A stretch of 64,000 nt of DNA from Octopus vulgaris. Taxonomy: Eukaryota. Location of the stretch: NCBI GenBank assembly GCA_951406725.2, contig OX597828.1, positions 48,546,001-48,610,000 of the forward strand, written 5' to 3'. A program made the translations under genes and the position numbers. Shown here one piece after another: positions 5,835 to 63,536 of this stretch (its first letter is position 1; the number at the start of each line of letters is the position of its first letter). The notes beneath the pieces are model-generated. The model was given only the letters and a program-made list of their open reading frames with translations. It had not been told where the DNA came from and did no database searches.

Positions 5835-6299
5835 TTCTACTATAGACACAAGGCCTAACATTTGGAGGAAGGGATTAAACCTATTATATCGACCCCAGTG
5901 TCTCACTGGTACTTATTTAATCAACCTCGAAAGGATGGAGAGGAGAATAGTCGATTACATCTACTCCAGTACTCAACTGGTACTTAATTTATCGACCCCG
6001 AAACGATGAAAGGCAAAGTCGACCCCGTTGGCATTTGAACTCAGAACGCAAAGTCGGACGAAATACCTATTTCTTTACTACCCACAAGGGGCTACACACA
6101 GAGGGGACAAACAAGGACAGACAAACGGATTAAGTCGATTACATTGACCCCCAGTGCGTAACTGGTACATAATTTATCGACCCCGAAACGATGAAAGGCA
6201 AAGTCGACCTCGGCGGAATTTGAACTCAGAACGTAACGGCAGACGAAATACGGCTACGCATTTCGCCCGGCGTGCTAACGATTCTGCCAGCTGCCGCCT
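5835..6299 (-). mobile_element. SINE family B tandem composite
   Basis: Head GGCGGC(G)AGCTGGCAGAA, B-box GAGTTCAAATTCC, core GCCTTTCATCCTTTCGGGGTCGATAAATTAAGTACCAG (resembles, from memory, the Meta/MESC SINE domain). A full unit followed by partial units. Confidence 0.85.
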
Positions 6300-6569
6300 C
6301 AATAATGATGATGATGATGATGATGATGACGATAAGTGAACATGATCAAAATAAAAAAGGAAAAGAAAGTATAAAGCTGAGAGGAATGCAAACACTAGAA
6401 CTAAAAAAAAAGCAATAAAGAAGGTTAAAAAAAAAAAATATATATAAATAATGTGTGGCACATCAGGGATGGGTGGGGGAGTATGAAAAGGGTGTGGTGA
6501 GAGAAAAACTATTTCTGAGTGTCTCAGAAATTATGATGGTCTCAGTCAAACGATCTATCTACCTATCTA

Positions 6570-6663
<94 letters not shown>

Positions 6664-6666
<3 letters not shown>

Positions 6667-6876
6667 GGCAGAAACGTTAGCACGCCGGGCGAAATGCTCA
6701 GCAGTATTTCGTCTGTCGTTACGTTCTGGGTTCAAACACCGACTTTGCCTTTCATCCTTTCGAGGTCGATAAATAAAGTACCAGTTGTGCACTGAGGTCG
6801 ATGTAGTTGACTTAATCCCTTTGTCTGTCTTTGTTTGTCCCCTCTATGTTTAGCCCCTTGTGGGCAATAAAGAAAT
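6664..6876 (+). mobile_element. SINE family B
   Basis: CTGGCAGAAACGTTAGCACGCCGGGCG ... CCCCTTGTGGGCAATAAAGAAATA. Confidence 0.85.
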
Positions 6877-7139: not shown

Positions 7140-7225
<86 letters not shown>

Positions 7226-7228
<3 letters not shown>

Positions 7229-7797
7229 TTTCTCCATCTTCCCTTTCCTTTTTCTATGTTTCTGACGAAGAGCTCTGCTCGAAACGTTAAATCATCCTTC
7301 TTTCTTTCCTTTCCTGAGCGTCCAATAACACTATATTTGTTCCACATCCTCGCGTTGTTCTGTTTTCTCTTTGTTCATGTTTGGATTAACTATATGTACC
7401 GCACGCTCACACGGACCCCGGCTTTCTGACTGACTTGGATAACCAATTGCTGGATTTTTACACCTACGGATTACTGCTACCATTCATCCGGAGTACGCCA
7501 TTGTAATCGTGATTGGAAATCATCAAAAATTTGTCCGTGACTCTTCCAGTTTTTCTCGTCCGCTTTTTACCTTTCTTCTTTCTCCTACTTGACCACGTGT
7601 GTATCGTTGGCGATTTTCTTTCTCCATCTTCCCTTCCTTGAACCTTTCCTTTTTCTATGTTTCTGACGAAGAGCTCCGCTTGAAACGTTAAATCCTCCTA
7701 CTTTCTTTCCTTTCCTGAGCGTCCAATAAAACTATACTTGTACCACGTCCTCGCGTTGTTGTGCTTTTCTTGCATGCTCATGTTTGGATTAACTATA
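7226..7797 (+). mobile_element. Tandem pseudo-LTR-like repeat pair, each with a minimal hammerhead motif
   Basis: Direct repeats 7226-7394 and 7616-7797, each containing GTTT-CTGACGA-A-GAGC-(3 nt)-GCT(C/T)-GAAACGTT-AAAT. Confidence 0.65.
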
Positions 7798-7806
7798 TAT
7801 ATATAG

Positions 7807-7837
<31 letters not shown>

Positions 7838-8202
7838 TGTATGTATGTATGTATGTATGTATGTATGTATGCATGTATGTATGTATGTATGTATGTGTTT
7901 GTGTGTGTATATTTATAAATGCACACATATATACACATACACGCACACACGCATACATAGATACACGTATTATTATCCAAAATGGAGACGAGTACCAACG
8001 TTCCTATGTAGAAGCTTGATAATTGTTGAGAGGGTTACTACATGAAACCATTGGTAGCCTTGTTAATTCAGAAATAAAGAATGTTTATCCATCAATGCGG
8101 GTCACTCATTCTTAATGTTCGATATTAACGTATATACATACATGCATACATACATACATACATACATACATACATACATACATACATACATACATACATA
8201 CA

Positions 8203-8415
8203 TAGTTAATCCAAACATGAAAACACAAAGAGAAAACACAACAACGCGAGGGCGTGGAACAAATATAGTATCATTGGACGCTCAGGAAGGAAGGAAGGGA
8301 AGAAGGAGGGTTTAACGTTTCGAGCGGAGCTCTTCGTCGGAAACATAGGAGAAGGAAAGATCCAGAGAAGGGAAGACAGAGGAAAAAAAAATCGCCAACG
8401 GTGCACACGCGGTCA
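8203..8415 (-). mobile_element. Inverted third copy of the hammerhead-bearing repeat
   Basis: Reverse complement of about 7590-7795; core GTTT-CCGACGA-A-GAGCTCCGCTC-GAAACGTT-AAAC. Confidence 0.65.
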
Positions 8416-14554: not shown

Positions 14555-15186
14555 CTCAGCAATGTGTACGTTACGAGAGTATATTTATGAAAACAACTGT
14601 ATATGCAAATAACTGTTTTCCCGCTGCTCTTACTGTTGTTGTTAGTGGTGGTGGTGGTGGTGGTGATGGTGGTGGTGGTGGTGATGGTGATGGTGGTGGT
14701 AGTGGTGGTGGTGGTGGTGGTGGTGGAAGTGGTGGCGGCGGTGATGTTGTGGGTTATATTCGCACAGATTTTCTTTAAAAAAATGCCAATAATTTTCGGG
14801 TCACAGGGATCAATGGAGTCAGCTTTCCACCCAACTTCTTAAATAAAATAGATTCATTTGTTGTTGTTTTTGTTGTTGGTGTTGTCCTTGTTATTTTTTT
14901 TAGCCCATGGTAAGTGTTCACTGAGATGGTCTGTAAGCCAGAGACACGTCGATCGTGATCGTCTCGTCACTTTCGTACGACCTAGGATTATCAAGGACTA
15001 TATTATCTAATGTGTCTATCTTTCTCCCTCCTTTCATTTCCAAATATGATTTGAAGGAAGGAAATATTTCAAGCTGTCTTTAGAACTAACATTATGTTAT
15101 ATATACATCCTTTGGTAAGATACCAAGGAAACTACGATAATAACGAAGACGAGAACGATGACGTTGATGATGATGATGATGATGCT

Positions 15187-18100
15187 GGTAGTGGTGGCGG
15201 CAGCAGTGGTGGTGGTTGCAGTGGTGGTGGTTGCAGTTGTGGTGGTTGCAGTGATGGTGGTTGCAGTGGTGGTGGTTGCAGTGGTGGTGGTTGCAGTGGT
15301 GGTGGTTGCAGTGATGGTGGTTGCAGTGATGGTGGTTGCAGTGGTGGTGGTTGCAGTGGTGGCGGCAGCAGTGATGGTGGTTGCAGTGGTGGTGGTTGCA
15401 GTGGTGGTGGTTGCAGTGGTGGTGGTTGCAGTGGTGGTGGTTGCAGTGGTGGCGGCAGCAGTGATGGTGGTTGCAGTGGTGGTGGTTGCAGTGGTGGTGG
15501 TTGCAGTGGTGACGGCAGCAGTGGTGGTGGTTGCAGTGGTGGTGGTTGCAGTGGTGGTGGTTGCAGTTGTGGTGGTTGCAGTGGTGGTGGTTGCAGTGAT
15601 GGTGGTTGCAGTGGTGGTGGTTGCAGTGGTGGTGGTTGCAGTTGTGGTGGTTGCAGTGGTGGTGGTTGCAGTGGTGGTGGTTGCAGTGGGGGTGGTTGCA
15701 GTGGTGGTGGTTGCAGTGATGGTGGTTGCAGTGGTGGTGGTTGCAGTGGTGGTGGTTGCAGTGGTGGTGGTTGCAGTGGTGGTGGTTGCAGTGGTGGTGG
15801 TTGCAGTGGTGGTGGTTGCAGTGATGGTGGTTGCAGTGGTGGTGGTTGCAGTGGTGGTGGTTGCAGTGGTGGTGGTTGCAGTGGTGGTGGTTGCAGTGAT
15901 GGTGGTTGCAGTGGTGGTGGTTGCAGTGATGGTGGTTGCAGTGATGGTGGTTGCAGTGGTGGTGGTTGCAGTGGTGGTGGTTGCAGTGGTGGTGGTTGCA
16001 GTGGTGGTGGTTGCAGTGATGGTGGTTGCAGTGGTGGTGGTTGCAGTGATGGTGGTTGCAGTGGTGGTGGTTGCAGTGGTGGTGGTTGCAGTGGTGGTGG
16101 TTGCAGAGGTGGTGGTTGCAGTGGTGGTGGTTGCAGTGGTGGTGGTTGCAGTGATGGTGGTTGCAGTGGTGGTGGTTGCAGTGGTGGTGGTTGCAGTGGT
16201 GGTGGTTGCAGTGGTGGTGGTTGCAGTGGATGGTGGTTGCAGTGGTGGTGGTTGCAGTGATGGTGGTTGCAGTGGTGGTGGTTGCAGTGGTGGTGGTTGC
16301 AGTGGTGGTGGTTGCAGTGATGGTGGTTGCAGTGGTGGTGGTTGCAGTGATGGTGGTTGCAGTGGTGGTCGTTGCAGTGGTGGTGGTTGCAGTGATGGTG
16401 GTTGCAGTGATGGTGGTTGCAGTGGTGGTGGTTGCAGTGGTGGTGGTTGCAGTGGTGGTGGTTGCAGTGGTGGTGGTTGCAGTGGTGGTGGTTGCAGTGA
16501 TGGTGGTTGCAGTGGTGGTGGTTGCAGTGATGGTGGTTGCAGTGGTGGTGGTTGCAGTGATGGTGGTTGCAGTGGTGGTGGTTGCAGTGGTGGTGGTTGC
16601 AGTGGTGGTGGTTGCAGTGGTGACGGCAGCAGTGGTGGTGGTTGCAGTGGTGGTGGTTGCAGTGGTGGTGGTTGCAGTTGTGGTGGTTGCAGTGGTGGTG
16701 GTTGCAGTGGTGGTGGTTGCAGTGGTGGTGGTTGCAGTGGTGGTGGTTGCAGTGGTGGTGGTTGCAGTTGTGGTGGTTGCAGTGGTGGTGGTTGCAGTGA
16801 TGGTGGTTGCAGTGGTGGTGGTTGCAGTGGTGGTGGTTGCAGTGGTGGTGGTTGCAGTGGTGGTGGTTGCAGTGGTGGTGGTTGCAGTTGTGGTGGTTGC
16901 AGTGGTGGTGGTTGCAGTGGTGGTGGTTGCAGTGATGGTGGTTGCAGTGGTGGTGGTTGCAGTGGTGGTGGTTGCAGTGGTGGTGGTTGCAGTGGTGGTG
17001 GTTGCAGTGATGGTGGTTGCAGTGGTGGTGGTTGCAGTGATGGTGGTTGCAGTGATGGTGGTTGCAGTGGTGGTGGTTGCAGTGGTGGTGGTTGCAGTGG
17101 TGGTGGTTGCAGTGATGGTGGTTGCAGTGGTGGTGGTTGCAGTGATGGTGGTTGCAGTGGTGGTGGTTGCAGTGGTGGTGGTTGCAGTGGTGGTGGTTGC
17201 AGTGGTGGTGGTTGCAGTGGTGGTGGTTGCAGTGGTATTGGTTGCAGTGGTGGTGGTTGCAGTGATGGTGGTTGCAGTGATGGTGGTTGCAGTGGTGGTG
17301 GTTGCAGTGATGGTGGTTGCAGTGGTGGTGGTTGCAGTGGTGGTGGTTGCAGTGGTGGTGGTTGCAGTGGTGGTGGTTGCAGTGGTGGTGGTTGCAGTGA
17401 TGGTGGTTGCAGTGGTGGTGGTTGCAGTGATGGTGGTTGCAGTGGTGGTGGTTGCAGTGGTGGTGGTTGCAGTGGTGGTGGTTGCAGTGGTGGTGGTTGC
17501 AGTGGTGGTGGTTGCAGTGATGGTGGTTGCAGTGGTGGTGGTTGCAGTGATGGTGGTTGCAGTGGTGGTGGTTGCAGTGGTGGTGGTTGCAGTGGTGACG
17601 GCAGCAGTGGTGGTGGTTGCAGTGGTGGTGGTTGCAGTGGTGGTGGTTGCAGTTGTGGTGGTTGCAGTGGTGGTGGTTGCAGTGGTGACGGCAGCAGTGG
17701 TGGTGGTTGCAGTAGTGGTGGTTGCAGTGGTGGTGGTTGCAGTGGTGGTGGTTGCAGTGGTGGTGGTTGCAGTGGTGGTGGTTGCAGTGGTGGTGGTTGC
17801 AGTGGTGGTGGTTGCAGTGGTGGTGGTTGCAGTGATGGTGGTTGCAGTGGTGGTGGTTGCAGTAGTGGTGGTTGCAGTGGTGGTGGTTGCAGTGGTGGTG
17901 GTTGCAGTGATGGTGGTTGCAGTTGTGGTGGTTGCAGTGGTGGTGGTTGCAGTGGTGGTGGTTGCAGTGGTGGTGGTTGCAGTGATGGTGGTTGCAGTGG
18001 TGGTGGTTGCAGTGGTGGTGGTTGCAGTGGTGGTGGTTGCAGTGGTGGTGGTTGCAGTGGTGGTGGTTGCAGTGGTGGTGGTTGCAGTGGTGGTGGTTGC

Positions 18101-18230
18101 AGTGGTGGTGGTTGCAGTGATGGTGGTTGCAGTGGTGACGGCAGCAGTGGTGGTGGTTGCAGTAGTGGTGGTTGCAGTGGTGGTGGTTGCAGTAGTGGTG
18201 GTTGCAGTGATGGTGGTTGCAGTGGTGGTC
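15187..18230. repeat. 15-bp minisatellite (GGTTGCAGTGGTGGT)n, about 200 units
   Basis: Continuous array with variant units (GAT, TGT, GACGGCAGC, AGT) and one 1-nt insertion near 16230. Confidence 0.97.
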
Positions 18231-18244
18231 ATAATGATAAGGAT

Positions 18245-18620
18245 GCTAAAACGCTTCTCAGCATTTCGTCCGTTTTTTATGTTCTGAGCTCAAATTCCGC
18301 CTTGGTCGACTTTGCTTTTTATCTTTTCAGGGTCAATATAATAAGTACCATTTGAGCACTGGGGATCAACTTCTTATTATTATCATTGTCCTTATAAGGC
18401 AGCGATTTGACTGAATCGTAAGATCCTCGAACAAAATGTCTTGCGGTACTTCACCCAAATCTTGACGCTCTGAATTCAAACTCCACCGAGATTAAGTCTG
18501 TTTTTCATTCCTCCGGGGTCAATAAAACGAAGTACCTGTCACGTACTGGGAGCATGGTATAGTCTAGCCCCTCCCCATCACTAAAAATTACTGACCTCGT
18601 CCCTAAATTAGAAACCAATA
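18245..18620 (+). mobile_element. Old SINE family B copies adjoining the minisatellite
   Basis: GCATTTCGTCC..GTTCTGAGCTCAAATTCCGCC..GGTCGACTTTGC, plus a second diverged unit from about 18397. Confidence 0.6.
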
Positions 18621-28120: not shown

Positions 28121-28833
28121 GTGTGTGTGTGCATGCGTGTGTGTGTGTGTTTGTGTGATTATGTAGCGTGAGAAATCGTAGAGAATTTTAAAAACTACAG
28201 AGTGCAATGCTGGTTGAGATAATCATTTCACAAGTTTTTGATTTCTTTTTTGCTTAACTCCGCGGTTTCTGATGCTTTTGATACATACGAGCAGCAACAA
28301 CCACAACACCAACGCCACCACCACCACCACCACCAACAACAACTCTGTTTACAACAATAACATAAAGCAATGTTTTAAAACATATACATTTAGATTATTT
28401 ACCCAAATAACAGCACACTATCAAACCTATTAAAGGGTCGCCGTACTATAATAACTCATCAGGCGTTATTACACTCACAGATACTCTCGAACTTGAAATC
28501 TATTAAACGTCGCACTTAAGCATCTAATAAGTAAATAAATAAGTAAATAGATAAATAAATATATAAATAAATAGATAAATAAATATATAAAACGTGAACG
28601 AAAGAAATGAAAACATAACAACAAGCAAAAACACTCGTAACAGCAAATGCTTTCTGCTTTTTCACACACACATGAAACTTTACTGCACCCTCCCCCCCCC
28701 CCTCAAAAAAAAGTCTACTTTGCACCCTTGATAACCACCCTGTACCCTGCTTATTTACACGTCGAATTTCTTTATCTTCTTTAATTTTCTGCAAAGTATG
28801 GGGTTACATTATTTTGGAGAAGGAGTGTGTGCA

Positions 28834-28877
<44 letters not shown>

Positions 28878-29419
28878 CGTTAGGGCTGGTGTTTTTGTTG
28901 TTTTTTTTTTGTGGGGGTTTTAATTTTTTATTTTAATGTTTATTTTTATCTTCAAAAGCTGCTCCTTAATGCAGTGGAATTTAACATCCTGCTAAAATAT
29001 ATTTCTTCTCAGGCATTCAAACTAATGAAGCGTCTTTACATCAAAAGACACAACAGATCGCTTGCAAATAATAATAATAATAATAATAATTAAAAAAATA
29101 AAAGAGAAAAGAGAAAGAAAGAAAGAAAGAAAGAAATGGTACGAAAACTTTTCTCAATGCTCTTCTGCACTTTACGACTTTTCAAATAAGTTCCTTAACC
29201 ATTTAACGACCAACAGTACAAGACTGATAACGCGTCCTATTGGAAATTTATAAAAATATTATTTATTATTATAATAATTATTATTATTATCATTATTATT
29301 ATTATTGTTGTTACTATTACGTTACTTGTTCTTTTACCCGTTCCAGCCTACTGATAGTAGCCAGGCTGGGGCCCCAAATATTATCACTTGCAATACTGGT
29401 GTTGTTATTGTACTACGAA

Positions 29420-30310
29420 GCCAAAATGCTGATATAGGACATGCAGTAACTCATCAGTGGCTGAGGAGTTCAGGGTTGAAAATAGAGACTGAAGGCTTCA
29501 TACTTGCAGCACAGGATCAAATCTTGCTTACTAGAAATTACCATGCCAACGTTCTCCGAAACGGCACTGATTCTAAATGCAGATTCTGCAACACATTTGA
29601 CGAAACAACAAACCATCTCGCTTCGGGATGTCCTGTGCTAACACCAAACGAATACAAAAGTCGCCACGATAGGGTAGGACAGTATTTACATTTGAAAATA
29701 TGTAGCTACTACAAAATCGGAACCCCTGCTTACTGGTATGAACATCATCCTGAGCCAGTTGTTGAAGGTAAAAATATCACCATCCTATGGGATTTTCCAG
29801 TTAACACTAACAGAACAATCCAGGATAATCGACCAGACATAATTATTAAAGACAGGGAAGAAAATACATGCAGACTAATAAATGTAAGTGTTCCCAGTGA
29901 TAAAAGTACTTCTGTAAAGGAGTTTGACAAATTTAGTAAATATAAGGACCTAGAGATTGAAATACAAAAGAAGTGGACTCGTAAAGCAAAAATTGTTCCT
30001 GTTATTGCAGGTGCGCTAGGTATGATTAAAAAAAAAGGGGGGATGCCAGAAACATTTAGACAACATCCCAGGAGAACCATGTCTCACGAAAATCCAAAAG
30101 ATTGAGCTGACAATTACTACCAACATCCTTAGAAAATCCCTATCAATTTAAATGTTAGCGTTGTATTATATTGAGGCTTTTCTCTACTGCCCTCGTCAAT
30201 CTTTCAATTATATTTCAACACCTCTTGACTTTCATTTGTCCTAGGGCGCTGGGTATGTCCCGACATGTGATTGCATCAAACAGGCAGATTAAAAGTAAGC
30301 AACAGTGCTG
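29420..30310 (+). mobile_element. R4/Dong-type non-LTR retrotransposon 3' part (zinc knuckle and restriction-like endonuclease)
   Basis: LKIETEGFILAAQDQ, CRFC...ETTNHLASGC (CCHC), YKSRHDRV, ILWDF, NRPDII, KFSKYKDL, VPVIAGALG. Frameshift near 30035; followed by a (TAC)n(TAA)n(GAA)n microsatellite. Confidence 0.88.
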
Positions 30311-52827: not shown

Positions 52828-53034
52828 TAAGATTACAAAAAAGAAGAAAAAGAAAAAAGACAGATGGGTGAGGGAACAATAAACAGTTTGTCTTAGTTTG
52901 ATAGTGAGGAAAACTAGAAGTCTTTGACGTTTCGAACGCACGCTCTTCTACAGAAGCGAAGGAGTAGAGAAAACAAGAGAAAGGGAAAATGGAGAAAGAA
53001 AATATATGTATGAATGCATATATATATGGTTATG

Positions 53035-54661
53035 ATTGATTGATTGATTGATTGATTGATTCTAGTTTCAGCTTATGAGCTGTGGCCATGCTGGGGCACC
53101 GCCATTTGGTGTTGCTACTTGGTTTCACTTCACGAAAGCTTTCTAGCAACTGCCATTTGGTGCATGAGAGAGTTCGATGCAGCTGCCCTCATCTGCCCCT
53201 CCTGCCGTGAAGTTGGTTCATCTGGGACACCTGACAGGAAGAGATCCAGCTTCATTTTAAAGACATCTGCATCCACCCCATGCAGGTCTCTCAGGTTCTT
53301 CGGGAGGATATTGAAGAGCTGTGGGCCTCGGAAGCCCAGGCTATCACAGAATCTTGTCCTACATCTTGATGGCAAGTTTGGAGTCCTAGGCACCACGCAG
53401 TGGCGCCCAGTTCTGGCATTTGCGTAACTCTCGATGCCAAAGTTTAGGACACGTCCCTCCAGGATCTTCCAGATGTATATTATGGCATGTCTTTCCCGCC
53501 TACGCTCCAGGGAATATAGTTTTAATTTCTTGAGTCTTTCCCAGTAGCTTACATTCTGCATAGAGGCTATCTTCTTCGTGTAGCTACGTTGGATCGCCTC
53601 GAGCTCTGTGATCAACTTGACACTGGATGGTGACCATAACTGAGAGCAGTAGTCAAAGTGGCTTAGGACAAGTGTCCTCCAGAGGACCATCATGGTTTCT
53701 TGTTCTCTTGTTCTAAAGGTTCTGAGGATCCATCCGGCCAGTCGTCTACATTTCATTGCCAATTTAGCAACATGTACACGAAAGGTCGCGTCATCACTCA
53801 TGTAAATACCTAGGTCACGCACTTATTGTGCCTCTGGGATTGCTATTCCTCCGGGTCCAGTGTATTCATTGGGTATTGCATTTAGTTTTGCATGCTGATA
53901 GTATAGAGCTTGAAACTTTTCAGCATTGAACTGCATGCTATTCTTTTCAGACAACTTGTATATTTTGTCCAGCTCACATTGCAGGTGTTTAGTGTCCTCA
54001 GGGTTCTGTATTGCCTGTGAAACTTTTGTATCATCTGCATAACTTGTGATCGTGGCTCTCTGCGTGGCTGAGGGCATGTCTGAGAGGGCCATTATGAACA
54101 GTAGTGGTCCCAGAACAGTGCCCTGCGGAACACCGCTCACTATTTGCGTGTTAATGGAAGTGGCCCCATTGGCTACTACCACCTGACTTCTATCTTTCAG
54201 AAAGTCATGAAGCCATTCTCCCAGTTTTCCAACTATGTTGAGATCACGCAGTTTGTGACATATCATTCCATGATCGACTTTATCAAAGGCCTTTGCAAAG
54301 TCGAGATATATCACTTCCACATTTGAGTGGTTGAGCAACCGTTTCAGCACCCAGTCATAGTGTTGTAGGAGCTGAGTTAAACAGCTTCTCCCTGGTCGGA
54401 AACCATGTTGGGTGTCGGGCAGCAAGTCATTCTCTTCAAGGAAGGTGATCAGCTTCCTTCTGACTATTCGTTCCATGACCTTGCTGATGTGTGAGGTCAG
54501 AGAGATAGGTCTGTAGTTCTTGGCTTCCGCTCTGCTACCTCCTTTATGAATGGGGCATATTTTACCTTCCTTCAGTTTTCTTGGAAGTTTGCCAGCTGCA
54601 AGGAAGCTCTGAAAGAGGAACTGCAGTGGTCTTGCTAGGACTCTCTTACATGCTTTTAGGA

Positions 54662-54663
<2 letters not shown>
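53035..54663 (-). mobile_element. 5'-truncated CR1/L2-like non-LTR retrotransposon, reverse transcriptase plus 3' end
   Basis: RT motifs NYRPISLTS, QHGFRPGRSC, YLDFAKAFDKV, SGVPQGTVLGPLLF, SYADDTK. One in-frame TAA at 53825-53823 separates the two track ORFs. C-terminal LYSLERRR motif; (ATCA)n tail at about 53035-53062. Confidence 0.92.
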
Positions 54664-54756
<93 letters not shown>

Positions 54757-55226
54757 TATATGTATATGTATATGGGTATATGTACGATAATACGTATATA
54801 TATGTACGTGTGTGTTTGTGTGAGTATATGTGTATGTGTGTGAGAGAGAGAGAGAGAGAAAGAGTATATGTATGTACGTGTGTGTAAGGTTTTATAATAG
54901 GTAGCTGGTATTACACTTGATCTCTCCGCTAATGAAGTGCGACATGGTGCACAAAGCCTTGCATGAAGCGTGTAACTGACTGTAACCAAACTATTCTCCT
55001 GTCCTTTGTATCTCAATCTAACATGGCCGCCCAGTCGGCTCGTCAGAGCACGTAAGATTATTGGTTTTGTGTCATTAAGGACATTTTTACATATGGTTAA
55101 TGTCCCACTTCATTTTAAGTCCTTCAATTAAAGGAATTTAAAAGGGACCCACCCAGTATTACAGCAACAACAATAATAACATCAAAAGCGACGGTATTTA
55201 TAGAAACAAGGAGGAAGCCTCTAGCC

Positions 55227-62559: not shown

Positions 62560-63000
62560 AGAGGAGGAGACGGAGGGGATGTGTAGGAGAAAGAGGATGG
62601 TAGGAGAAGTAAGAGAGGGAGAAGATGAAAGGTGAGGAAGAAGAGGAGCAAAGGGGAGAGAAAAAAAGTAGGATAGAAACTGAAGAAAAGAAAACAGGGC
62701 CAGGGTAGAAGGGGAGGAGGAAGAGTAGGAGAGAAGGTGGGTAGGAAGATTAGAAGTAGAAGGGAGAGAAGAGGAAGGTGAAAGGCGAAGACGATGCTGG
62801 TGATGATGGTGATGATGACGAGGAGGGGAGGAGGAAGGGAGGAGGAAAGAAGGCGGAGGAAGGAAGGAGAAGGAGTAAGGAAAGAAAGAAAGAAGGAAGA
62901 GAAGGGAAGGTGGACAAGGAGGAGGGAAAGAAGAGGGTAGTAAGAGGAGGGAAGGAGGAGGGGAAGAAGAAGAAGAAGTGGATGATGATGATGATGTTGT

Positions 63001-63035
<35 letters not shown>
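62520..63035. repeat. (GTA)n, polypurine tract and (GAT)n in the intron between two TSR exons
   Basis: About 420 nt nearly pyrimidine-free on the plus strand. Confidence 0.85.
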
Positions 63036-63058
63036 GTGGTGTTTGTGTTTATACTTAC

Positions 63059-63260
63059 GGGAGACCATTCTCCGGCATACCATCGAGGACAAATATCAGT
63101 GTTACAAGATTTGTATTCCGAAGGTTGCAGCTGCTTACAGAATTGATCTTCTACCCATCGCGCTTGACCGGAAGGTCCGTATTCCATACAACTTACTTCT
63201 CTCAGACTGGTCCCTCCACCACAAGTCATGGTGCAAGGCTGCCATTCTTGTGCCTCCCAC
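63059..63260 (-). CDS. madd-4: ADAMTS-like (ADAMTSL1/3, punctin, MADD-4-like) internal exon, TSR1 repeat
   Basis: Acceptor ccaattccag|G, donor TCTCCC|gtaagt; 202 nt (phase 2 to 0) encoding (R)WEAQEWQPCTMTCGGGTSLREVSCMEYGPSGQARWVEDQFCKQLQPSEYKSCNTDICPRWYAGEWSP. The WxxxxWxxCxxxCGGG..R.V.C pattern is a TSR1 repeat and closely follows my recollection of ADAMTSL1 (RWEA.PW..C..SCGGG..SRAVSCVE...CPKWLAQEWSP). Orthology needs BLAST and a tree. Confidence 0.9.
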
Positions 63261-63536
63261 CTGGAATTGGATGGAAACTGAAGAATGTAACACACTGCCG
63301 GGCCGAGAGGCGAACTATGTTCACAGTCTTTTACAGGTTAACGAGACTTAAATGTTGCTTTACAAGGTGTGACATTTTGAATGGCGGAGTGGTGATTGTC
63401 AACCATTTATTTCTTTACCTATGGGCCCCTTCTATTACTATGTTATTGTAGGGGATCCCTATAACCACTCAGTGTTTCAAAGCTAGTTTTATAGATACTT
63501 CTTTCAAAATTCCTATTTTGTTTTTCACACGTTCAC

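What the first reader, a model, noticed from the sequence alone, without database searches (positions are those of the whole stretch)
7226..8415. Tandem plus inverted repeats carrying minimal hammerhead-ribozyme motifs
Seen: three copies of a 170-210-bp unit, two direct and about 400 nt apart, one inverted. Each has CUGACGA-A-[GAGC-loop-GCUC]-GAAACGUU flanked by GUUU/AAA(C/U) as a short helix I, with the palindrome AACGUU where helix III would be. Cores are at 7262-7288, 7663-7689 and 8340-8314 (the last reads CCGACGA). Known: Penelope-like elements and retrozymes carry minimal type I hammerheads lacking a stable helix III, which can cleave as dimers from tandem copies. Inference: a non-autonomous Penelope/retrozyme-like family whose plus-strand transcript could release a ~400-nt monomer, possibly circularising.
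Basis: partly seen in the sequence, partly recalled or inferred. Interest (0 to 1): 0.75.

Follow-up and report, generated by a model that had tools for sequence, protein, structure and literature searches.

The report
Decayed Penelope-type hammerhead repeats in octopus
The three hammerhead-ribozyme motifs are real, but they are decaying copies of a very abundant octopus repeat, likely a small protein-free passenger of Penelope-type jumping genes (a known kind), and these particular copies are predicted not to cut themselves or release a circular RNA.

Summary
Observation confirmed: three minimal type I hammerhead motifs at 7262, 7663 (+) and 8340 (-); none in 100 shuffled windows. The host is an octopus (ADAMTS-like exon 100% identical to O. 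vulgaris). Public-run contigs show two layers: a ~205-bp motif-bearing unit with fixed ends in (TA)n, very roughly tens of thousands of copies, and a 500- to 13,000-fold rarer ~190-bp spacer that follows a unit end at other loci too. Copy 3 is likely a separate insertion (tail-to-tail, 411 bp away, other subfamily). CCGACGA is a common family variant (39-65% of depth), not decay. This locus is likely dead: copy 2 lost G10.1-C11.1, the double-hammerhead fold is predicted 24 kcal/mol uphill, copy 3 pairs with copy 2 over ~190 bp, the monomer is unstructured and not enriched in presumed RNA runs. No Penelope ORF was linked; cleavage is untested. The kind is published (Cervera & de la Pena 2014; Li et al. 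2026), and this scan already noted many such octopus families on other DNA.

The parts
7174..7226 (.). (TA)n microsatellite directly 5' of copy 1; likely insertion target
   Evidence: TRF period 2, 26.5 copies
7226..7390 (+). Copy 1 of the unit, 5'-shortened; pseudo-LTR-like upstream partial copy
7258..7292 (+). Minimal type I hammerhead 1: helix I 7258-7261/7289-7292, core 7262-7269, stem II 7270-7280, GAAACGUU 7281-7288; predicted cut 7288|7289
7391..7398 (+). Junction between unit end and spacer; four TA repeats in the family majority (7396 reads A in 97% of X1 depth)
   Evidence: table 3; tables 7, 8
7399..7589 (+). Spacer, ~190 bp, moderately repeated; follows a unit end at other loci; no coding match found
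7590..7793 (+). Copy 2, whole ~205-bp unit, followed by (TA)n/(TATG)n
7659..7693 (+). Minimal hammerhead 2; C11.1 changed to U at 7681 (family majority C, 83-99% of depth); predicted cut 7689|7690
7808..8204 (.). (TATG)n 7808-7896, a ~170-bp stretch single in this window, and (ATAC)n 8134-8204: DNA between copies 2 and 3 that is not part of the unit
8205..8415 (-). Copy 3, whole unit on the minus strand, between two (CATA)n tracts; tail-to-tail with copy 2; likely a separate insertion
8310..8344 (-). Minimal hammerhead 3 with the U4C core variant and a full G-C-closed helix I; predicted cut 8314|8313

Best explanation
These are three decaying copies of a very abundant ~205-bp octopus repeat that carries a minimal hammerhead motif and sits in TA-type microsatellites; copies 1 and 2 with their spacer are likely one 1.4-unit insertion of a ~400-nt protein-free element likely copied by Penelope-type enzymes, copy 3 is likely a separate insertion, and the locus is predicted to be catalytically silent today. 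Shown: motif, ends, microsatellite flanks, recurrence of the unit-spacer junction, abundance contrast. Inferred: a Penelope-type endonuclease nicks genomic (TA)n; the freed end anneals to the (UA)4 at the unit/spacer junction of a tandem or circular RNA; the reverse transcriptase copies back through unit, spacer and part of the next unit and stops, which gives a fixed 3' end and a 5'-shortened upstream copy. Every copy spans the predicted cut site intact, so the template was either uncut or cut and re-ligated. In the parent the hammerhead would cut weakly and only as a dimer (two ACGU palindromes forming a shared helix III). The solo ~205-bp units with a fixed 5' start are likely a shorter derivative that amplified far more.
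For: Motif fits the published consensus, including the extra base between A9 and G10.1, the palindrome and the U-rich 5' side. Partial tandems and (TA)n targets are described for PLEs. Abundance: summed contig depth over the core ~3.0 million in X1 against single contigs of depth 41-58; core/spacer ratio 578, 1523, 3695, 13270 in X1, X5, X6, X7. Junction recurs: loose ends before 7393 read like the unit's 3' end in 7, 7, 5 and 3 contigs of X1, X2, X4, X5, and contigs with 11-20 differences tile the spacer (7388-7508, 7393-7552, 7454-7583) with no joint listed. Copies 1 and 2 differ at 11 of 145 sites, against 13 of 146 and 18 of 148 to copy 3; they share 13 sites against copy 3, among them A at 7626 where the family has G in 89-95% of depth. 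Silence: double-hammerhead fold 23.6 kcal/mol above the minimum in 7226-7800; 188-189 pairs between copies 2 and 3 on either strand.
Against: No Penelope RT or GIY-YIG ORF was linked to the unit or spacer; no genome was held, so the link rests on motif and architecture. No stem II covariation was seen among the 40 of 81 variant rows shown. Summed depth is not a copy number (tool warning), and X1 may be the window's own source. Loose ends before 7590 in X5-X7 share a short non-TA ending, so a second upstream context may exist that I could not read. Ten sites group copies 1 and 3 against copy 2, so the 1+2 pairing is favoured, not proven. Folding energies ignore core tertiary contacts; the dimer fold is also uphill for the intact copy 3 with itself, so the energy argument cannot separate dead from live copies well. 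The 30-40-bp tail described for PLE insertions is not seen after copies 2 or 3.
Confidence: 0.68

Rival explanations
1. The unit is the pseudo-LTR of an autonomous octopus PLE, and the spacer is a piece of that element's body (ORF end or 5' region, with the rest lost); all copies are truncated stubs and no ~400-nt non-autonomous element exists.
For: PLE insertions are mostly 5'-truncated and leave solo hammerheads. Octopus has many PLE families, 31 with recently active insertions. A 38-codon open frame lies at 7390-7506. 96 loose-end rows were not shown.
Against: The spacer is continuous in other copies and is preceded by a unit end in 4 of 4 runs; only 7-15% of laid contigs run on into unlike sequence; the 38-aa frame hit only a repetitive chance match among 1.84 billion proteins and the 83-residue read-through hit 0 of 64 candidates; 1-nt deletions are common at 7523-7524.
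Confidence: 0.14
2. One reading: a plus-strand transcript of this locus folds as a double hammerhead, cuts at both sites and releases a 401-nt monomer that circularises.
For: Two same-strand motifs 401 nt apart with complementary ACGU palindromes; 42% GC and size within the retrozyme range. Dimeric minimal hammerheads show low but real cleavage in vitro.
Against: Copy 2 has G.U at 10.1-11.1 and its stem II is only 18-25% formed; both copies have G.U at the end of helix I; copies 1 and 2 are predicted to pair into an inactive long duplex; the monomer folds worse than 95 of 100 shuffles; the spacer is rarer, not commoner, relative to the unit in presumed RNA runs X6 and X7 than in X1; the neighbouring gene is on the minus strand; 8 of 9 tested Xenopus dimers did not cleave.
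Confidence: 0.07
3. Three or four independent insertions piled into neighbouring TA tracts, and the 401-nt spacing is an accident of target preference.
For: All three copies end in TA-type repeats, and the copy 1/spacer junction is itself a TA run. The family is abundant enough for clusters. This reading does hold for copy 3.
Against: The junction has the same short length in other loci (gap-free contigs across 7388-7496, 7388-7459, 7388-7481); copies 1 and 2 share a minority allele.
Confidence: 0.08
4. The motif is a chance look-alike in a repeat of another kind and never acted as a ribozyme.
For: No Rfam hit; stem II only 4 bp with a 3-nt loop; U4C in about half of the family; a decoy pairing of GUUUC with GAAAC competes in all copies.
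Against: 0 of 20,000 unit shuffles give the motif; a 73%-identical relative at 52953 (-) keeps stem II through a G.U change and has a GUC site; the one frequent helix I variant (7292/7693 T or C) keeps its pair with G.
Confidence: 0.03

Closest known systems
Minimal type I hammerheads (min-HHR) in pseudo-LTRs of metazoan Penelope-like elements (Cervera & de la Pena 2014, PMC4209133; parts 1-2 of 4 of the text and 4 supplement passages seen)
   Same: CUGANGA + extra base + G10.1...C11.1 GAAA, palindromic 15.2-16.2, no helix III, short helix I, U-rich 5' side, CGUU-type cut site as listed for Lottia; mostly solo copies, some opposite-strand pairs 100-700 bp apart.
   Different: Stem II is 4 bp with a 3-nt loop (7-8 bp in Schistosoma; 3-4 bp in the nematode rows); U4C in about half of the family; no ORF linked here; Octopus is not in the one supplementary file searched.
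Metazoan non-LTR retrozymes (Cervera & de la Pena 2020, PMC7229834, passages and Discussion; Li, Clavereau & Pollet 2026, 10.64898/2026.07.22.740005, parts 1-3 of 5, supplements not seen)
   Same: Non-coding monomer of ~400 nt, GC 42%, one type I hammerhead per unit, likely mobilised by PLEs; many solo monomers.
   Different: Hammerhead minimal, not canonical; only 1.4 units, not reported by TRF; monomer not more structured than shuffles; no sign of an abundant RNA; the dominant form is a half-length solo unit.
Insertion architecture of EN+ PLEs (Craig et al. 2021, PMC8557442; passages, section 6 and a supplement search seen)
   Same: Partial tandem with a 5'-shortened upstream copy; insertion in (TA)n.
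   Different: The inverted copy there adjoins the 5' end; here it lies 3', tail-to-tail, 411 bp away; no 30-40-bp tail seen; no ORF.

Membership tests
PLE-type minimal hammerhead | Core CUGANGA, one extra base, G10.1-C11.1, GAAA | tested here: met
   Fully met in copy 1; copy 2 has G.U at 10.1-11.1 (private, family C 83-99%); copy 3 has U4C
PLE-type minimal hammerhead | Palindromic 15.2-16.2, no stable helix III, NUH site | tested here: met
   A-CG-U then U17 in 3 of 3 copies
PLE-type minimal hammerhead | Short helix I (3-5 bp) | tested here: met
   4 bp in 3 of 3; G.U end in copies 1 and 2, G-C in copy 3
PLE-type minimal hammerhead | Covariation and excess core conservation among genomic copies | tested here: inconclusive
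   Among the 40 of 81 variant rows shown, U4C is the only frequent core variant and no two-sided stem II change appears; one one-sided helix I change; no copy set could be aligned
PLE-type minimal hammerhead | Weak self-cleavage as a dimer in vitro | not testable with these tools
   Only folding models
Autonomous EN+ PLE | ORF with PLE RT and GIY-YIG endonuclease between the repeats | tested here: not met
   No such ORF at the locus; the window's RT at 53826-55109 is 45 kb away and was not tied to this family
PLE insertion architecture | Partial tandem with 5'-truncated upstream copy | tested here: met
   Copy 1 (5'-shortened) + spacer + copy 2; junction recurs elsewhere
PLE insertion architecture | [quoted passage not shown] | tested here: not met
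   Copy 3 is 3', tail-to-tail, 411 bp away
PLE insertion architecture | Insertion in microsatellites such as (TA)n | tested here: met
   All outer ends abut (TA)n or (TATG)n; TA-rich loose ends in public contigs
PLE insertion architecture | 30-40-bp tail at one end | tested here: not met
   Microsatellite follows directly after copies 2 and 3
Non-LTR retrozyme | Non-coding monomer of 150-450 nt, GC under 45-50% | tested here: met
   401 nt, GC 0.42; no protein match
Non-LTR retrozyme | Tandem array of two or more units, each with a complete hammerhead | tested here: not met
   1.4 units; TRF reports no 401-nt period; arrays elsewhere could not be examined
Non-LTR retrozyme | Canonical type I hammerhead (2020 definition; the 2026 preprint also accepts minimal ones) | tested here: not met
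   Minimal motif; no Rfam hammerhead hit
Non-LTR retrozyme | Abundant linear and circular monomer RNA | tested here: inconclusive
   Only contigs of runs guessed to be RNA; spacer not enriched; contigs show no strand, ends or circles
tRNA-headed SINE | tRNA-like head with A and B boxes | tested here: not met
   ARAGORN 0 genes; no plus-strand A or B box with recalled consensus patterns

The most novel reading that the evidence does not exclude
The family is a live two-tier ribozyme parasite of octopus Penelope elements: a ~400-nt RNA is cut by a dimer-only hammerhead, re-ligated to a circle and copied from an internal (UA)4 primer site, and a half-length offspring with a U4C core and a built-in GUUUC/GAAAC off-switch has become one of the most numerous ribozyme-bearing repeats in an animal genome, seeding introns with sense/antisense duplexes.
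Probability: 0.15. Interest if true: 0.55.

Novelty: new member of a known kind. Interest (0 to 1): 0.27.

Why it matters
The kind is known: minimal hammerheads in Penelope-like repeats and small non-coding derivatives moved by them. What this family adds is a large natural copy set, in a host for which my searches found no hammerhead description, in which two open points can be tested: whether PLE templates are cut and re-ligated circles (fixed 3' end ~100 nt beyond an intact cut site, 1.4-unit insertions), and whether a U4C core, reported to lower activity in vitro (PMC3088659, passage), is tolerated or favoured during amplification. The locus itself is likely inert.

Tried and rejected
Whole genome: none held, so no copy extraction, covariance model or ORF-linkage search. 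Rfam: no hammerhead family (the E-value rows are microsatellite hairpins). Pattern scans: 0 in viral contigs, 0 in metagenome contigs, 0 in prokaryote genomes; an 18-mer gave 11 metagenome loci, all 11 dropped as chance because homology ends at 16-24 nt. Spacer as coding: the 38-aa frame gave one hit, P0001, a repetitive protein matching 13 residues, rejected; an 83-residue read-through gave 0 of 64 candidates; the other five frames were not searched. Family motifs absent from the Craig 2021 supplement and from the paper library. The O. vulgaris repeat paper has no mention of ribozyme or hammerhead; its supplement was listed, not read. By-sequence, near and relatives look-ups in earlier scan notes returned nothing. 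The single-motif pair probabilities had an off-by-one error and were redone. The bacterial promoter scan is irrelevant to this host. Rejected: CCGACGA as local decay (39-65% of family depth); cleavage after UUA (breaks the helix I register); copy 3 as the PLE inverted pLTR (wrong end and orientation).

Full report
Observation. The sequence, BLAST and alignment show three copies of one unit: 7226-7390 (+, 5'-shortened), 7590-7793 (+) and 8205-8415 (-). Copies 1 and 2 are 401 nt apart. Each holds a 4-bp helix I (GUUU with AAAU or AAAC), a core CUGACGA (CCGACGA in copy 3), an extra A, a 4-bp stem II with a 3-nt loop, and GAAACGUU. A descriptor written after the published minimal motif finds exactly these 3 sites in 64 kb, 0 in 100 shuffled windows and 0 in 20,000 shuffles of one unit. 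The copies are homologous, so this counts once. Copy 2's stem II ends in U, giving G.U at 10.1-11.1. Rfam has no hit, as expected for a motif without helix III.

Host and setting. Residues 26-94 of an exon frame at 62753-63337 (-) are 100% identical to an Octopus vulgaris ADAMTS-like protein and to an O. sinensis one (TSP1 domains). Exons run on the minus strand from 63334 to 41283, with a short isoform ending at 28257. Residues after ~190 of the longer homologues have no exon in the window, so the locus is either beyond the short isoform or in a long minus-strand intron. In the latter case only copy 3 is read in sense.

The family. No genome was held, so I used contigs of public runs. Of 24 runs listed I laid six. 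On 7226-7800 (X1, X5, X6, X7) the summed depth over the two cores is ~3.0 million in X1, where single contigs have depth 41-58. That points very roughly to tens of thousands of copies; the tool warns that summed depth is no copy number, and X1 may be the window's own source. X5 carries another species label and shows the same pattern. The spacer's median depth is 578, 1523, 3695 and 13270 times lower. Depth in X1 jumps from 779 to 430,977 at 7586-7605, and 86, 59, 27 and 15 contigs have AT-rich loose ends before 7590, so the common unit has a fixed start. It ends at GGATTAAC before (TA)n. So the main product is a solo ~205-bp unit.

Is the ~400-nt monomer real? On 7388-7596 (X1, X2, X4, X5) 117, 92, 65 and 83 contigs were laid. 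Loose ends before 7393 read like the unit's 3' end in 7, 7, 5 and 3 contigs. Contigs with 11-20 differences, hence other loci, tile the spacer (7388-7508, 7393-7552, 7454-7583); no joint was listed and 7-15% run on into unlike DNA. At the 3' side the family has a slightly longer pyrimidine stretch whose shown letters end in GAC in X2 and X4, compatible with running into the unit, though the 30-letter cap stops short of proof; one X1 contig joins 7580 to 7644 instead. 96 loose-end rows were not shown. No coding match was found for the one frame tested. I conclude that unit + spacer is a recurring monomer, perhaps of the order of a hundred copies, and that 7226-7793 is a 1.4-unit partial tandem, the layout described for PLE insertions (PMC8557442).

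Copy 3. It lies tail-to-tail with copy 2, 411 bp away, across two (TATG)n tracts and ~170 bp seen once in the window. PLE inverted copies adjoin the 5' end. Copies 1 and 2 differ at 11 of 145 sites, and from copy 3 at 13 of 146 and 18 of 148. Thirteen sites group 1+2, ten group 1+3, four group 2+3; the 1+2 set includes A at 7626 where the family has G in 89-95% of depth. Copy 3 is therefore likely a separate insertion. Its CCGACGA is a family variant: C at 7664 in 39, 57, 52 and 65% of depth. A U4C core is reported to cut much less in vitro yet to support a viroid in vivo (PMC3088659, passage).

Would this locus cut? Private changes at 7276, 7346 and 7681 are CpG-type transitions against the family majority, as in neutral decay; 7681 hits the conserved G10.1-C11.1 pair. 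Stem II is formed 95%, 24% and 57% in the three short motifs, helix I at most 27%, and a decoy pairing of GUUUC with GAAAC takes 23%, 87% and up to 65%. In 7226-7800 the double-hammerhead fold is 23.6 kcal/mol above the minimum, in which copies 1 and 2 pair as a long inactive duplex. A longer transcript of either strand pairs copy 2 with copy 3 over 188-189 bp. Against leaning on this: the model ignores core tertiary contacts, and the dimer fold is also uphill for copy 3 with itself (-7.3 against -24.7). The 401-nt monomer folds worse than 95 of 100 shuffles. In X6 and X7, only guessed to be RNA, the spacer is rarer relative to the unit than in X1, which does not fit an abundant 400-nt RNA, though poly(A) selection could hide one. 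Published dimers of minimal hammerheads cut weakly, and 8 of 9 Xenopus dimers did not cut.

Mechanism. Shown: fixed 3' end about 100 nt past the predicted cut, intact motifs across the cut in all three copies, a short constant TA run at the unit/spacer junction (A at 7396 in 97% of X1 depth), microsatellite flanks. Inferred: Penelope-type target-primed reverse transcription at (TA)n, primed on that internal (UA)4, running back over unit, spacer and part of the next unit. A linear cut-to-cut RNA could give only ~100 nt from that site, so the template was an uncut tandem or a re-ligated circle, the model proposed in PMC4209133 and PMC7229834. I cannot tell these two apart. The mobilising enzyme is unidentified.

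Comparison and novelty. It works like the PLE minimal hammerheads and the PLE-derived non-LTR retrozymes. It fails as an autonomous PLE (no ORF) and as a strict retrozyme (1.4 units, minimal motif, no RNA shown); I file it as a non-autonomous PLE-type element. Paper searches for hammerhead + Penelope + Octopus, hammerhead ribozyme + octopus and the motif itself found no description of this family; octopus PLEs as such are catalogued, and repeat libraries I could not see may hold it. Supplements of the 2026 preprint were not seen, and one supplementary file of PMC4209133 could not be searched. Earlier notes of this scan describe many octopus hammerhead/Penelope families, one with U4C in most copies; these are unchecked and not counted as support. 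Verdict: real, a new member of a known kind, locus likely inert; interest 0.27.

Noticed in passing
window 53010-52826 (-): Diverged relative of the unit (73% over 88-96 nt): stem II GAGC/GUUC, GUC site, core damaged at A6; ends in (TA)n and abuts the 3' end of a LINE-like RT element.
   Followed up: partly
window 39918-39840 (-): A second CUGACGA...GAAAC pair that does not fit the minimal type I descriptor, at the end of a ~300-bp stretch seen once in the window; earlier scan notes on scrambled hammerheads in Naiad ends are a lead, untested.
   Followed up: no
window 63334-28257 (-): ADAMTS-like (TSP1 repeat) gene; O. vulgaris model ends at 28257 in two low-complexity exons, longer homologues continue beyond the window.
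   Followed up: partly
window 5949-6300, 6665-6814 and about 18 other places: A very common ~170-bp interspersed repeat, 21 BLAST matches in 64 kb; I recall it as an octopus SINE, not tested.
   Followed up: no
window 53130-55109 (-): Broken LINE-like element with an RVT_1 domain, interrupted by microsatellites.
   Followed up: no
window 29278-30105 (+): 275-aa open frame that looks by eye like the C-terminal part of a non-LTR retroelement ORF; no Pfam hit.
   Followed up: no
window 15100-18300: About 3.1-kb G-rich 15-bp-type minisatellite with strong strand skew.
   Followed up: no
runs X5-X7, loose ends before window 7590: Besides TA-rich flanks, a shared short ending (TCAATATG) precedes the unit, hinting at a second upstream context or parent element.
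   Followed up: no
run X1, joint 7580 to 7644: One contig joins the spacer to the unit just before the hammerhead, which would give a ~364-nt monomer variant.
   Followed up: no
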